Shown here piece after piece: positions 10,781 through 14,055 of a stretch of 16,481 bases of DNA. How positions within the stretch are numbered: position 1 is the first letter of the stretch; each line of letters starts with the position of its first letter. Where the stretch lies: the IMG/VR virus record IMGVR_UViG_2563366825_000024. One strand, given 5' to 3'. The translations under genes and the position numbers were made by a program. The DNA comes from a virus (lineage: Duplodnaviria > Heunggongvirae > Uroviricota > Caudoviricetes). The notes under the pieces are model-generated. The model had not been told where the DNA came from and searched no databases. It saw nothing but the letters and a program-made list of their open reading frames with translations.

Positions 10781-10983
10781 CCCCAGAATGTATAAATATA
10801 TGACCCCATCCCCTGCTCAAGATTCGACCACGTCACCGTATTGCCATTAATGGTTATCTTCGGTACTTTCCGGTCCTTAAATACATTATTCCACGGAAAT
10901 AATGAACAGACTGCCTGCAATGTTTTCCCTTCTGGTTTATTCGTATACGTTTTTGATCCCGACTCCGCCGTAAACCTGTCCAT
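10777..10983 (-). CDS. 68-aa ORF, possibly the 3' remnant of a gene interrupted by the adjacent IS3-family element
   Basis: ATG at 10981-10983 lies at the IS boundary. The same frame stays open upstream into the IS-derived sequence, so the native N-terminus may have been displaced. Stop overlaps the start of the 208-aa ORF. Confidence 0.4.
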   Translation of the reverse strand: MDRFTAESGSKTYTNKPEGKTLQAVCSLFPWNNVFKDRKVPKITINGNTVTWSNLEQGMGSYIYTFWG

Positions 10984-11898
10984 GTAGTGGTCAAGTAATA
11001 TTGGCCACGGTTTTACAGTAAAAATGGTATCTGTTCTCTGACTCTTCCGGCGTCAGCCCACCGTTATAATGGTGAGGTCTGACGCTGTTGTAGTAGTTCA
11101 ATATGTAATCATTAATTTGCTGCCGGGCCTCGTCCTTGCCTGCGTAACCATTCGTTGGCACCCATTCTGTTTTCAGACTGCGGAAGAAGCGTTCCATGGG
11201 GCTGTTATCCCAGCAGTTTCCCCGCCGACTGACGCTTTGATTTATTCTGCAACGCCAGAGAAGTTGTTGATATTTAAGGCCTGTATACTGGCTTCCCTGG
11301 TCGCTATGGAACACGACATCCCGGGGTTGGCCACGCGTCTCATAGGCCATCCGCAGGGCACTGCTTATCAGTGCGGTATCGGCATGCGCTGACAGACTCC
11401 AGCCGATAACCCTGCGGGCAAAAAGATCCATAACAACCGCCAGATAGCACCAGCGATTTCCTGCCCAGAGATACGTAATATCTCCACACCATACCCGGTC
11501 TGGCTCCGGTACTGCGAACTGACGCTCAAGCAGATTCGGCAGGCTGGTATGCTCCTGACGGGCATTTTTATACTGATGTTTTCCGGGCTGACAACTGCTC
11601 AGGTTCAGATATTTCATCAGACGTCCGGCACGGTAACGGCTCATCGGGACGCCGTTTTGAGTCAGCATTTCAGCCAGAGTGCGCGCGCCCGCAGAGCCCC
11701 GACTTTGGTTCCACGCCCGGCGTATTTCGCTGCACAACCTGACTCGTGCCGGATTAACCGTATCGCGTCGTTTTCGCCAGTACCGGTAACTGCTGCGGTG
11801 TATTTCCAGAGCAGAACACAGGCTGACAACCGTGTGGCTGTCACTTAGTCTGGCGGCTATCGTGAACCGTTCAGCGAGTCGGACATTAAGAGCGCGGT
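10960..11898 (-). mobile_element. IS3-family insertion sequence, 5'-truncated (orfA region replaced by IS30); low-coordinate end approximate
   Basis: Contains a full-length OrfB-type DDE transposase frame. Its upstream side abuts the IS30 terminus at 11898/11899. Confidence 0.7.
10991..11896 (-). pseudogene. IS3-family transposase OrfB frame (DD(35)E integrase domain) with no orfA partner
   Basis: Track ORF 10991..11737 starts at a TTG. The frame is open further upstream to the IS30 junction ([40 protein letters not shown]...). Motifs [10 protein letters not shown] and [13 protein letters not shown]. Confidence 0.7.
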
Positions 11899-13119
11899 TG
11901 TAGATTCAATTGGTCAACGCAACAGTTATGTGAAAACATGGGGTTGCGGAGGTTTTTTGAATGAGACGAACATTTACAGCAGAGGAAAAAGCCTCTGTTT
12001 TTGAACTATGGAAGAACGGAACAGGCTTCAGTGAAATAGCGAATATCCTGGGTTCAAAACCCGGAACGATCTTCACTATGTTAAGGGATACTGGCGGCAT
12101 AAAACCCCATGAGCGTAAGCGGGCTGTAGCTCACCTGACACTGTCTGAGCGCGAGGAGATACGAGCTGGTTTGTCAGCCAAAATGAGCATTCGTGCGATA
12201 GCTACTGCGCTGAATCGCAGTCCTTCGACGATCTCACGTGAAGTTCAGCGTAATCGGGGCAGACGCTATTACAAAGCTGTTGATGCTAATAACCGAGCCA
12301 ACAGAATGGCGAAAAGGCCAAAACCGTGCTTACTGGATCAAAATTTACCATTGCGAAAGCTTGTTCTGGAAAAGCTGGAGATGAAATGGTCTCCAGAGCA
12401 AATATCAGGATGGTTAAGGCGAACAAAACCACGTCAAAAAACGCTGCGAATATCACCTGAGACAATTTATAAAACGCTGTACTTTCGTAGCCGTGAAGCG
12501 CTACACCACCTGAATATACAGCATCTGCGACGGTCGCATAGCCTTCGCCATGGCAGGCGTCATACCCGCAAAGGCGAAAGAGGTACGATTAACATAGTGA
12601 ACGGAACACCAATTCACGAACGTTCCCGAAATATCGATAACAGACGCTCTCTGGGGCATTGGGAGGGCGATTTAGTCTCAGGTACAAAAAACTCTCATAT
12701 AGCCACACTTGTAGACCGAAAATCACGTTATACGATCATCCTTAGACTCAGGGGCAAAGATTCTGTCTCAGTAAATCAGGCTCTTACCGACAAATTCCTG
12801 AGTTTACCGTCAGAACTCAGAAAATCACTGACATGGGACAGAGGAATGGAACTGGCCAGACATCTAGAATTTACTGTCAGCACCGGCGTTAAAGTTTACT
12901 TCTGCGATCCTCAGAGTCCTTGGCAGCGGGGAACAAATGAGAACACAAATGGGCTAATTCGGCAGTACTTTCCTAAAAAGACATGTCTTGCCCAATATAC
13001 TCAACATGAACTAGATCTGGTTGCTGCTCAGCTAAACAACAGACCGAGAAAGACACTGAAGTTCAAAACACCGAAAGAGATAATTGAAAGGGGTGTTGCA
13101 TTGACAGATTGAATCTACA
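11899..13119 (+). mobile_element. IS30, complete copy (1221 bp)
   Basis: Left end TGTAGATTCAATTGGTCAACGCAACAGTTATGTGAA and right end ...TTGACAGATTGAATCTACA form the terminal inverted repeats. Encodes a 383-aa transposase that matches my recollection of IS30 InsI. Confidence 0.9.
11961..13112 (+). CDS. insI: IS30 transposase (383 aa)
   Basis: ATG at 11961; N-terminus MRRTFTAEEKASVFELWKNGTGFSEIANILG; intact full-length ORF inside the IS30 inverted repeats. Confidence 0.9.
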   Translation: MRRTFTAEEKASVFELWKNGTGFSEIANILGSKPGTIFTMLRDTGGIKPHERKRAVAHLTLSEREEIRAGLSAKMSIRAIATALNRSPSTISREVQRNRGRRYYKAVDANNRANRMAKRPKPCLLDQNLPLRKLVLEKLEMKWSPEQISGWLRRTKPRQKTLRISPETIYKTLYFRSREALHHLNIQHLRRSHSLRHGRRHTRKGERGTINIVNGTPIHERSRNIDNRRSLGHWEGDLVSGTKNSHIATLVDRKSRYTIILRLRGKDSVSVNQALTDKFLSLPSELRKSLTWDRGMELARHLEFTVSTGVKVYFCDPQSPWQRGTNENTNGLIRQYFPKKTCLAQYTQHELDLVAAQLNNRPRKTLKFKTPKEIIERGVALTD

Positions 13120-14055
13120 ACAGCGTATTTTGCACAGGAGTCGCTGAAAAATACGCGTTAATCGAACAATGGCGACAACAATTTCCCATTGAAGCGATGT
13201 GTCAGGTATTTGGTGTATCCAGGAGCGGTTATTACAACTGGGTACAGCATGAACCCTCAGACAGAAAACAAAGTGATGAGCGGCTAAAACTGGAGATTAA
13301 GGTGGCACATATCCGCACTCGCGAAACATATGGAACCCGGCGGCTCCAGACGGAGCTGGCAGAGAATGGCATCATCGTTGGTCGTGACCAACTGGCACGT
13401 CTTCGTAAGGAGCTAAGGCTACGCTGTAAGCAGAAACGCAAGTTCAGAGCGACTACGAACTCGAACCACAATCTGCCAGTTGCGCCAAATCTGCTGAACC
13501 AGACGTTCGCTCCTACAGCACCAAATCAGGTCTGGGTGGCGGACCTGACGTATGTTGCCACACAGGAGGGATGGTTGTACCTCGCTGGCATCAAAGATGT
13601 TTATACGTGCGAAATTGTCGGCTACGCCATGGGAGAGCGCATGACAAAAGAGCTGACAGGTAAAGCCCTGTTTATGGCGCTCAGGAGCCAGCGCCCACCT
13701 GCCGGGCTAATCCACCACTCTGATCGAGGTTCACAGTACTGCGCATACGATTACCGGGTCATACAGGAGCAGTTTGGTCTGAAAACATCAATGTCGCGTA
13801 AAGGTAACTGTTACGACAACGCTCCGATGGAAAGCTTCTGGGGAACGCTGAAAAATGAGAGCCTGAGCCACTATCGTTTTAATAACCGGGATGAAGCCAT
13901 CTCAGTAATACGGGAATACATTGAGATTTTCTACAATCGTCAGCGTCGTCACTCTCGTCTGGGGAATATCTCCCCGGCAGCCTTCAGGGAAAAATATCAT
14001 CAGATGGCTGCTTAAAAAAAGAACAAATGGTAGTGTCCGCTATTGCCAGTACACC
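13120..14055 (+). mobile_element. Second, different IS3-family element, 5'-truncated (orfA replaced by IS30); right end approximate
   Basis: OrfB frame is open from the IS30 junction (NSVFCTGVAEKYALIEQWRQQFPIEAMCQVFGVSRSGYYNW...) to TAA at 14013-14015. DDE motifs HHSDRGSQYCA and GNCYDNAPMESFW. Sequence is distinct from the left-hand IS3-family copy. Confidence 0.7.
13197..14015 (+). pseudogene. IS3-family transposase OrfB segment (272 aa from internal ATG), no orfA present
   Basis: Track ORF. The upstream in-frame region lacks the OrfA frame and frameshift window, so a normal OrfAB transposase cannot be made. Confidence 0.7.

What the first reader, a model, noticed from the sequence alone, without database searches (positions are those of the whole stretch)
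10960..14055. IS30 sandwiched between two different divergent IS3-family elements that both lack orfA
An intact IS30 (11899-13119) is flanked on each side by an OrfB-type DDE transposase frame reading away from IS30. The two OrfB sequences differ, so they come from two distinct IS3-family elements, and in both the orfA and frameshift region would lie where IS30 now sits. That symmetry is hard to explain by a single insertion. It suggests IS30-mediated rearrangement (for example two IS30 insertions followed by deletion or inversion between them), leaving one active IS30 and two immobilised IS3-family remnants. The 2 bp on each side of IS30 (GT and AC) do not match, which is consistent with a rearranged copy.
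Basis: partly seen in the sequence, partly recalled or inferred. Interest (0 to 1): 0.45.

Follow-up and report, generated by a model that had tools for sequence, protein, structure and literature searches.

The report
IS30 joint between two IS3-family remnants
An intact IS30 jumping gene sits between the back halves of two different IS3-family jumping genes because IS30 repeatedly lands on one short conserved motif in that family and DNA is then exchanged across IS30 copies; this is a common, ordinary scar in E. coli genomes.

Summary
IS30 (11899-13119) is intact. It is flanked by two unrelated IS3-family 3' remnants that read away from it. The left one (10983-11898, minus strand) comes from a 1258-bp IS911-like element that I call LE. 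The right one (13120-14058, plus strand) comes from IS600.

Both remnants are cut at the same homologous dinucleotide, one codon after the A-AAA-AAG/A slippery heptamer. GT on the left is AC on LE's own strand.

Both parent structures are widespread:
- Complete LE::IS30, with IS30 inverted, occurs in 193 E. coli genomes.
- The IS30|IS600 3' junction occurs in 1092 genomes. A complete IS600::IS30 with an AC duplication lies at the window's own right-hand site in two plasmids.

The window equals the left half of one parent plus the right half of the other.

IS30's flank preference, derived here from 61 other sites (TAAAaAAnGCnac), matches the IS3-family motif ATATTAAAAAAGGCTAC. In unbiased scans, 71% of IS30 ends abut this site.

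E. coli K-12 carries the reciprocal hybrid (IS911B/IS30D/IS600). The same 3076-bp unit is found in 15 complete genomes.

The exact route cannot be told from the product. An assembly chimera in this draft scaffold cannot be excluded (about 12%).

Verdict: ordinary and already known in kind.

The parts
10983..11898 (-). 3' remnant (positions 343-1258) of a 1258-bp IS911-like IS3-family element, here called LE. It holds the right terminal repeat (TGTAGTGGTCAAGTAATATTGGCCACGG at 10983), the complete OrfB frame (stop at 10991) and the last 13 orfA codons plus the stop (11857-11898).
   Evidence: NF033516 match. An intact copy with a 3-bp AAT duplication is at L006 3001-4258. The remnant is 916/916 identical to the LE part of complete LE::IS30 copies.
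11897..11898 (.). GT, which is AC on LE's own strand. This is one copy of the 2-bp IS30 target duplication of the LE hot spot.
   Evidence: Complete LE::IS30 copies carry ...GCGCGGT|IS30|GTAGCC.... Intact LE reads AAAAAAGGCT-AC-CGCGCTC.
11899..13119 (+). Intact IS30, 1221 bp. Left repeat 11899-11924, right repeat 13094-13119, transposase ORF 11961-13112 (383 aa).
   Evidence: It has 0-2 differences from the K-12 copies IS30A, IS30C and IS30D.
13120..13121 (.). AC, one copy of the 2-bp IS30 target duplication of the IS600 hot spot.
   Evidence: Complete IS600::IS30 reads ...AAAAAAAGCAAC|IS30|ACAGCG... in L003, L006 and L009.
13120..14058 (+). 3' remnant (positions 326-1264) of IS600. It holds the last 13 orfA codons plus the stop (13120-13161), the OrfB frame (to 14015) and the right terminal repeat, which ends at 14058.
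   Evidence: NF033516 match. PGAP labels it 'IS600 family'. In relatives, the missing 5' part is 325/327 identical to the IS600 fragment annotated in K-12.
14059..14061 (.). GAA, the right copy of the 3-bp target duplication made when IS600 inserted into a Tn3-family tnpA gene.
   Evidence: L003 and L009 read ...ggaaGGAA|IS600::IS30|GAAcccc.
14059..15730 (-). N-terminal fragment of the Tn3-family transposase gene that IS600 interrupted. Its C-terminal part and the IS600 5' part are absent from the window.
   Evidence: NF033527 profile positions 2-538 of 954. Both halves are present around IS600::IS30 in CP060062.
10777..10982 (-). Truncated prophage gene abutting the LE end. In uninterrupted prophages this gene continues into the tail-tip fibre genes, which are not in the window.
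   Evidence: Chromosomes that are 100% identical to the window up to this point stop matching at 10982.

Best explanation
The structure is a recombination joint centred on one IS30 copy.

**Step 1 (shown).** IS30 has a strong insertion hot spot in IS3-family elements. It duplicates the first two bases of the codon that lies one codon (3 nt) after the slippery heptamer:
- ATA TTA AAA AAG GCT [AC]C GCG in IS911 and LE
- ATA TTA AAA AAA GCA [AC]A GCG in IS600

This motif is a near-perfect match to IS30's general flank preference. IS30 is found there in either orientation.

**Step 2 (shown in other genomes).** IS30-disrupted LE (IS30 inverted) and IS30-disrupted IS600 (IS30 direct) are both common.

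**Step 3 (inferred).** DNA was exchanged across IS30 between an LE hot spot in a prophage and the IS600::IS30 sitting in a plasmid-type Tn3 tnpA gene. That joined LE 3' (reversed), IS30 and IS600 3'. The exchange could have occurred by:
- homologous recombination between two IS30 copies;
- transposase-mediated joining of the ends of two copies; or
- a hot-spot-targeted cointegrate, inversion or deletion event.

**Result.** One intact IS30 remains. The two IS3-family remnants each have only one end and no OrfAB, so they cannot move. A breakpoint now fuses prophage DNA to plasmid-type DNA.
For: **Same cut position in different elements**
- The junction positions are exactly homologous in IS600, LE and K-12 IS911A.
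- A fourth IS3-family element is cut at the same place, with a GC duplication.
- IS30 occurs at these sites in both orientations.

**Hot-spot preference**
- The consensus of 61 other distinct IS30 flanks is TAAAaAAnGCnac. IS911, LE and IS600 match it at every informative position on the 5' side.
- The arms of the four IS3-family sites are 6-7 of 12 complementary.
- The window's flanks extend the IS30 inverted repeat by 6 nt.
- 136 of 192 IS30 ends from unbiased scans abut these sites.

**Parent structures**
- The IS30-right-end | LE 5' junction that I predicted before searching is present at 100% identity in 193 genomes.
- Complete LE::IS30 is present in L011, L013 and L014. Its LE part is 916/916 identical to the window.
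- IS600::IS30 with AC and GAA duplications lies at the window's own right-hand site, 100% identical.

**Other hybrids of the same kind**
- Hybrids of the same design exist with a 92%-identical LE allele and with IS911.
- K-12 carries the reciprocal type, IS600 5' | IS30D | IS911B 5'.
- About 26 of 63 full IS30 copies sampled have mixed flanks.

**Literature**
- IS30 makes 2-bp duplications and targets nearly palindromic hot spots.
- It joins the ends of distant copies and makes deletions, inversions and cointegrates.
- Joints formed in hot spots are stable (PMC9333248).
- A 24-bp symmetric hot-spot consensus has been reported (cited in PMC12445084).
Against: - No genome searched has LE, or LE::IS30, at this prophage site. 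The left-hand parent of this particular copy is therefore inferred.
- IS30 copies are almost identical, so no crossover point can be seen.
- The published hot-spot consensus itself could not be read. The consensus used here is my own, and a few of the 61 flanks may come from other IS3-family elements.
- The many occurrences are largely inherited copies, not independent events.
- The source is a draft scaffold in which the plasmid-type part lies at the scaffold end.
Confidence: 0.82

Rival explanations
1. One-step variant of the best explanation. Only IS600::IS30 existed beforehand. Its IS30, as a dimer or circle junction, attacked the hot spot of an intact LE. That produced a cointegrate if LE was on another replicon, or a deletion or inversion if it was on the same replicon. 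No earlier LE::IS30 is needed.
For: - Plasmid pMD26 carries an intact LE in the same orientation, 104 bp from IS600::IS30. Removing 772 bp (L006 3917-4688) reproduces the window's unit exactly.
- K-12's IS911B/IS30D/IS600 nest can be read as the same kind of adjacent deletion ending in the IS911 hot spot.
- IS30 dimers are documented to give deletions, inversions and cointegrates at hot spots (PMC9333248; PMC9330008).
Against: - The product is identical to that of recombination between two pre-existing insertions, so nothing in the sequence favours this route.
- LE::IS30 is abundant (193 genomes), so a pre-existing second copy is readily available.
- None of the hybrid copies examined has the outer flanks seen in pMD26.
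Confidence: 0.3
2. Assembly chimera. The real genome has a complete LE::IS30 in the prophage and a complete IS600::IS30 on a plasmid, and the assembler crossed over inside the 1.2-kb IS30 repeat.
For: - The source is a draft scaffold, GCA_000407805.1 KE136671.1, 122.6 kb. The plasmid-type part is within about 8 kb of the scaffold end.
- The left side is 100% identical to chromosomal prophages. The right side is 100% identical to an IncK2/Z plasmid.
- Both parent structures are far commoner than the hybrid: 193 and 1092 genomes against 15.
Against: - The same hybrid unit occurs in 15 complete genomes in several contexts.
- Hybrids of this class are common, and one lies in the finished K-12 genome.
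- The window has no N.
- By inference, mate pairs spanning a 2.5-kb nested element should have contradicted a false join.
Confidence: 0.12
3. The 3076-bp unit is itself a mobile composite that uses the two outward-facing IS3-family right ends, and it transposed into each of its locations.
For: The unit has identical outer boundaries (10983 and 14058) in at least four different genomic contexts.
Against: - No 3-bp direct repeat flanks the unit in any context: CCA/GAA, ACC/TGC, TAC/ATC, AGG/GGA.
- The two ends belong to unrelated elements with dissimilar terminal repeats.
- The right flank, with its GAA, is inherited from an ordinary IS600 insertion.
Confidence: 0.02

Closest known systems
E. 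coli K-12 MG1655 KpLE2 nest: IS911B 5' part, IS30D, IS600 5' part (NC_000913.3, 4507125-4509801)
   Same: One IS30 is joined, at exactly the same two hot-spot dinucleotides, to IS600 on one side and to an IS911-type element in opposite orientation on the other. The flanking dinucleotides are mismatched, AC and GT.
   Different: K-12 keeps the two 5' (orfA) parts, which converge on IS30. This is the reciprocal product type. The window keeps the two 3' (orfB) parts, which diverge from IS30. The partner element in K-12 is IS911, not LE.
E. coli K-12 CP4-6 IS911A::IS30A, and IS600::IS30 and LE::IS30 in many genomes
   Same: They use the same target dinucleotide one codon after the slippery heptamer and show a 2-bp duplication.
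   Different: These are simple insertions, with both halves of one host element present and matching duplications. The window combines halves from two different host elements.
ETEC plasmid joint IS911 3' (41 bp), IS30, IS600 3', next to eltAB (pETEC_80 and many others)
   Same: It has the same design, with divergent 3' parts. The IS30-IS600 junction is the same, and the IS30 left end is joined to the hot spot of an IS911-type element.
   Different: The left partner is IS911 itself, and it has been further cut down to 41 bp.
IS30 hot-spot targeting and dimer or cointegrate pathways (Olasz 1993 and 1998; PMC9333248)
   Same: Shared features are a 2-bp duplication, a nearly symmetric hot spot, and deletions, inversions and cointegrates that leave IS30 copies with flanks of different origin. 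Joints formed in hot spots are stable.
   Different: In the papers I could read, the hot spots are lambda- or plasmid-derived test sites. They do not state that the IS3-family slippery region is a hot spot, although IS911 interrupted by IS30A is drawn in their maps.
Insertion sequences that target other mobile elements, for example IS4321 and IS5075 in Tn21-family terminal repeats (from my own knowledge, not tested here)
   Same: One mobile element uses a conserved functional motif of another as its landing site.
   Different: These belong to a different transposase family, use a different mechanism and target terminal repeats rather than a coding frameshift site.

Membership tests
IS30 (IS30 family) | An element of about 1.2 kb with imperfect terminal inverted repeats of about 26 bp. 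| tested here: met
   The element is 1221 bp, with repeats at 11899-11924 and 13094-13119. It differs at 0-2 positions from the K-12 copies IS30A, IS30C and IS30D.
IS30 (IS30 family) | A single DDE transposase ORF. | tested here: met
   A 383-aa ORF matches NF033563 at 3e-82, 276 bits against a cutoff of 80.
IS30 (IS30 family) | A 2-bp direct target duplication. | tested here: not met
   The flanks are GT and AC, which is not a direct repeat. This is expected for a rearranged copy. The parent insertions show AC/AC and GT/GT. It does not affect the element's identity.
IS600 (IS3 family) | Sequence identity to the IS600 reference, and its right terminal repeat. | tested here: met
   PGAP labels it 'IS600 family'. 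In relatives the contiguous 5' part is 325/327 identical to the K-12 IS600 fragment. The reconstructed element is 1264 bp. Its outer 3-bp GAA duplication is seen in L003.
IS600 (IS3 family) | orfA, a slippery site and orfB that together give the OrfAB transposase, plus both terminal repeats. | tested here: not met
   Only positions 326-1264 are present. The orfA body, the heptamer and the left repeat are missing. It is a remnant, not a functional member.
IS3 family (left element, LE) | An OrfB DDE domain of IS3 type. | tested here: met
   NF033516 at 8.8e-80, 268.7 bits against a cutoff of 160.
IS3 family (left element, LE) | A complete element with terminal repeats, orfA, an A6G frameshift site and a 3-bp duplication. 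| tested here: met
   This is met by the intact copy in pMD26 (1258 bp, programmed frameshift annotated, AAT duplication). The window copy itself keeps only positions 343-1258.
IS911 (as the identity of the left element) | Near-identity to IS911. | tested here: not met
   Only patches of LE align to K-12 IS911, at 66-88% identity. LE is a relative of IS911, not IS911 itself. I could not determine its registry name.
Composite transposon | Two compatible outer ends and a target duplication around the whole unit. | tested here: not met
   No matching 3-bp repeats were found in four contexts, and the ends come from unrelated elements.

The most novel reading that the evidence does not exclude
IS30 acts as a specialised lodger of IS3-family elements. 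Its preferred target half-site (TAAAaAAnGC) coincides with the I-L-K-K-A codons plus the A-AAA-AAG slippery heptamer. Those elements cannot easily change this motif, because their own frameshifting depends on it.

This would give IS30 a harmless landing site. It would also inactivate rival elements. And it would make IS30 a portable 1.2-kb homology patch that shuffles IS3-family halves and fuses replicons, for example next to the LT toxin genes on ETEC plasmids.

The pattern itself is strongly supported here. What is uncertain is whether it has already been described, and whether it reflects adaptation rather than a coincidence of motifs.
Probability: 0.3. Interest if true: 0.4.

Novelty: already known. 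Interest (0 to 1): 0.2.

Why it matters
For this window it matters little. The structure is a common IS scar. It is annotated as pseudogenes in many genomes, and its reciprocal counterpart sits in the K-12 reference.

Practically, such joints mark breakpoints where chromosome, prophage and plasmid DNA have been fused or rearranged. They are also places where draft assemblies can go wrong.

The broader pattern seen in passing may deserve a short note if it is not already published. About 70% of sampled IS30 ends sit one codon after the IS3-family slippery site. Roughly 1000 E. coli genomes each carry the IS30|IS600 3' and IS30|IS911 3' junctions. This pattern explains why IS30 is so often found inside IS911 and IS600.

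Tried and rejected
- **Crossover mapping inside IS30.** The copies differ at only 12 scattered singleton positions, and none separates the parent types.
- **Whole-unit transposition.** I looked for 3-bp duplications around the 3076-bp unit in four contexts and found none.
- **Deletion from a pMD26-like tandem as the specific ancestor.** The 772-bp deletion fits exactly. None of the hybrids shares pMD26's outer flanks, so I kept this only as a mechanistic variant.
- **Finding the left-hand parent.** I searched for LE or LE::IS30 at window position 10982. No E. coli complete genome and no plasmid has it.
- **Reading the published IS30 hot-spot consensus.** The key papers are not held. Text searches for GOHS, and for IS30 together with IS911, IS600 and frameshift, found no statement that the IS3-family slippery site is an IS30 hot spot. 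I derived a consensus from data instead.
- **Rfam scan of the window.** No hits.
- **Registry name of the left element.** Not resolved. PGAP says only 'IS3 family'.
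Full report
**1. What is in the window**

IS30 occupies 11899-13119 (1221 bp). It runs TGTAGATTCAATTGG...CAGATTGAATCTACA. Its terminal repeats are detected independently. Its 383-aa transposase ORF, 11961-13112, matches the IS30 model at 3e-82. Its DNA is identical to IS30 copies in several complete genomes and differs from the K-12 copies at 1-2 positions.

Two OrfB-type frames flank it and read away from it:
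- On the left, an OrfB frame on the minus strand runs from 11898 down to a stop at 10991.
- On the right, an OrfB frame on the plus strand runs to 14015.

Both match the IS3-family model. They are only 34% identical as proteins. The reconstructed elements share no nucleotide similarity.

**2. Identity of the flanking pieces**

The right piece is IS600, positions 326-1264 of 1264. PGAP labels it IS600 family. In relatives it is contiguous with a 327-bp 5' part that is 325/327 identical to the IS600 fragment annotated in K-12.

The left piece comes from a 1258-bp IS3-family element that I call LE. An intact copy lies in plasmid pMD26. That copy has a programmed frameshift annotated, IS911-like ends (TGTAGTGG...) and a 3-bp AAT duplication. 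LE is related to IS911 but is not IS911: only patches align, at 66-88% identity.

**3. The key fact: both cuts are at the same homologous dinucleotide**

| Element | Sequence around the IS30 junction |
|---|---|
| IS600 (complete insertion in relatives) | ...ATA TTA AAA AAA GCA AC \| IS30 \| AC A GCG TAT TTT... |
| IS911A::IS30A (K-12) | ...ATA TTA AAA AAG GCT AC \| IS30 \| AC C GCG CTC TTG... |
| LE (window, on LE's own strand) | IS30 \| AC C GCG CTC TTA ATG... (LE position 343) |

Intact LE reads AAA AAG GCT ACC GCG at this point. So IS30 always duplicates the first two bases of the codon that lies one codon after the slippery heptamer.

Each remnant keeps only the last 13 orfA codons plus the stop.

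**4. Is this a hot spot?**

I scanned a species-representative genome set, metagenome contigs and viral contigs for both IS30 ends.
- Of 192 ends with readable flanks, 136 (71%) abut this site in IS911, IS600, LE or a fourth IS3-family element. The fourth element reads ATA TTA AAA AAA GCC [GC]G GCG TAC TTC.
- IS30 is found there in both orientations in each host element.
- The remaining 61 distinct flanks give the consensus TAAAaAAnGCnac next to the IS30 end. IS911, LE and IS600 match it at every informative position on their 5' side. On the 3' side the IS600 remnant matches at 7 of 9 positions and the LE remnant at 6 of 9.
- This makes a nearly symmetric site. The arms of the four IS3-family sites are 6-7 of 12 complementary.
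- It agrees with the published description of IS30 hot spots as nearly palindromic, with a 24-bp symmetric consensus and 2-bp duplications (PMC9333248; PMC12445084). I could not read the consensus itself.

Counts among 5426 complete E. coli genomes:

| Junction | Genomes |
|---|---|
| IS30 right end \| IS600 3' | 1092 |
| IS30 right end \| IS911 3' | 992 |
| IS30 right end \| LE 5' (reversed) | 193 |
| IS30 right end present at all | about 3400-3700 |

Many of these copies are inherited rather than independent.

**5. The parents of the window's structure**

I predicted the other half of an inverted IS30 insertion in LE: IS30 right end followed by GTAGCCTTTTTTAATATCG. It is present at 100% identity in 193 genomes. 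Loci L011, L013 and L014 show complete LE::IS30 with a GT/GT duplication. Their LE 3' part is 916/916 identical to the window.

On the other side, plasmids CP060058 and CP060062 carry a complete IS600::IS30. It has an AC/AC inner duplication and a GAA/GAA outer duplication, and it sits inside a Tn3-family tnpA gene. These plasmids are 100% identical to window 11899-15494.

The window is therefore the left half of an LE::IS30-type structure joined to the right half of that IS600::IS30. The IS600 5' part and the tnpA C-terminal part are missing. To the left of LE the sequence is a chromosomal prophage. It is 100% identical to several chromosomes up to 10982, and in those chromosomes the interrupted gene continues into tail genes that are not in the window. 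The IS30 sandwich thus marks a breakpoint between prophage DNA and plasmid-type DNA.

**6. Mechanism**

Three routes give exactly this product:
- homologous recombination between two IS30 copies;
- transposase-mediated joining of the ends of two IS30 copies;
- hot-spot-targeted attack by the IS600-borne IS30 on an LE hot spot, giving a cointegrate, inversion or adjacent deletion.

The third route is illustrated by pMD26. There, an intact LE lies 104 bp from IS600::IS30, and a 772-bp deletion would recreate the unit. All three routes are documented for IS30 (PMC9333248; PMC9330008). IS30 copies are too similar to reveal a crossover point, so the route cannot be decided.

The outcome is shown. 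The exchange step is inferred.

**7. How ordinary is it?**

- The identical 3076-bp unit occurs in 15 complete genomes, in at least four contexts. No target duplication surrounds the unit, so it did not move as a composite.
- Variants exist with a 92%-identical LE allele and with IS911. The IS911 variant lies next to the LT toxin genes on many ETEC plasmids.
- K-12 itself carries the reciprocal type, IS600 5' | IS30D | IS911B 5'.
- In the unbiased sample, about 26 of 63 complete IS30 copies have flanks of mixed origin.

The structure is a routine member of a common class.

**8. Caveat**

The window comes from a draft scaffold, GCA_000407805.1 KE136671.1. The plasmid-type part lies near the scaffold end. 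A false join inside the IS30 repeat would give the same picture. The hybrid class is real in finished genomes, the window has no N, and mate pairs should have contradicted a false join. I put this at about 12%. Only reads can settle it.

**9. Verdict**

- The symmetry is caused by a conserved IS30 hot spot one codon after the IS3-family slippery site.
- GT and AC are the same target dinucleotide.
- The exchange may be homologous rather than IS30-catalysed.

The kind of structure is already known and is annotated in public genomes. Interest is low. The one point that might merit a note is the extent to which IS30 lives inside IS3-family frameshift sites.

Noticed in passing
window 1-10982: This stretch is a chromosomal prophage segment. 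It carries a giant LPD5/MuF-type protein gene, a bacteriocin gene, hok/gef and an Ail/Lom outer-membrane protein gene. It is 100% identical over 6000-10982 to several E. coli chromosomes. It is about 90% identical to 50-63-kb records filed as non-mobilizable plasmids. LE cuts a 93-aa hypothetical gene just upstream of the tail-tip fibre gene.
   Followed up: partly
window 15495-15998: A 504-bp stretch between the Tn3-family tnpA start and the resolvase gene is present in the window. It is absent from the otherwise 100%-identical plasmid CP060058, where the resolvase ORF is shorter.
   Followed up: no
L001 (pETEC_80, NC_009786.1) 3001-5900, and many ETEC plasmids: A hybrid of the same design (41 bp of IS911 3' part, then IS30, then IS600 3' part) lies about 280 bp from the heat-labile enterotoxin genes eltAB. 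It is conserved across dozens of ETEC plasmids.
   Followed up: partly
L015 (K-12 NC_000913.3, 4507125-4509801): IS911B is split by IS30D plus the 327-bp 5' part of IS600. The IS600 left end abuts IS911B further downstream. This fits an IS600::IS30 insertion into IS911B, followed by a deletion that ended in the IS911 hot spot.
   Followed up: partly
metagenome and viral loci (for example L151, L166, L075, L145): Other mixed IS30 joints occur: two IS600 5' parts converging on one IS30, and divergent 3' parts of IS911 and a fourth IS3-family element. One non-IS3-like flank, GAACCGCTGACAGAAAAAGGCACT, recurs 11 times, and I did not identify it.
   Followed up: no
L023 (Serratia marcescens contig): Here IS30 has the orfA half of an IS3-family element on its left, cut at the same hot spot. 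On its right is the internal part of an IS1 insB-like gene. The hot spot and the mixed joints therefore extend beyond Escherichia.
   Followed up: partly
window 8831-9300: A hok/gef-type toxin ORF (46 aa, 8964-9104, minus strand) lies here, and the surrounding region is about 83% similar to many plasmid hok loci. No Rfam family reached its gathering score anywhere in the window, including any Sok-type antisense RNA.
   Followed up: no
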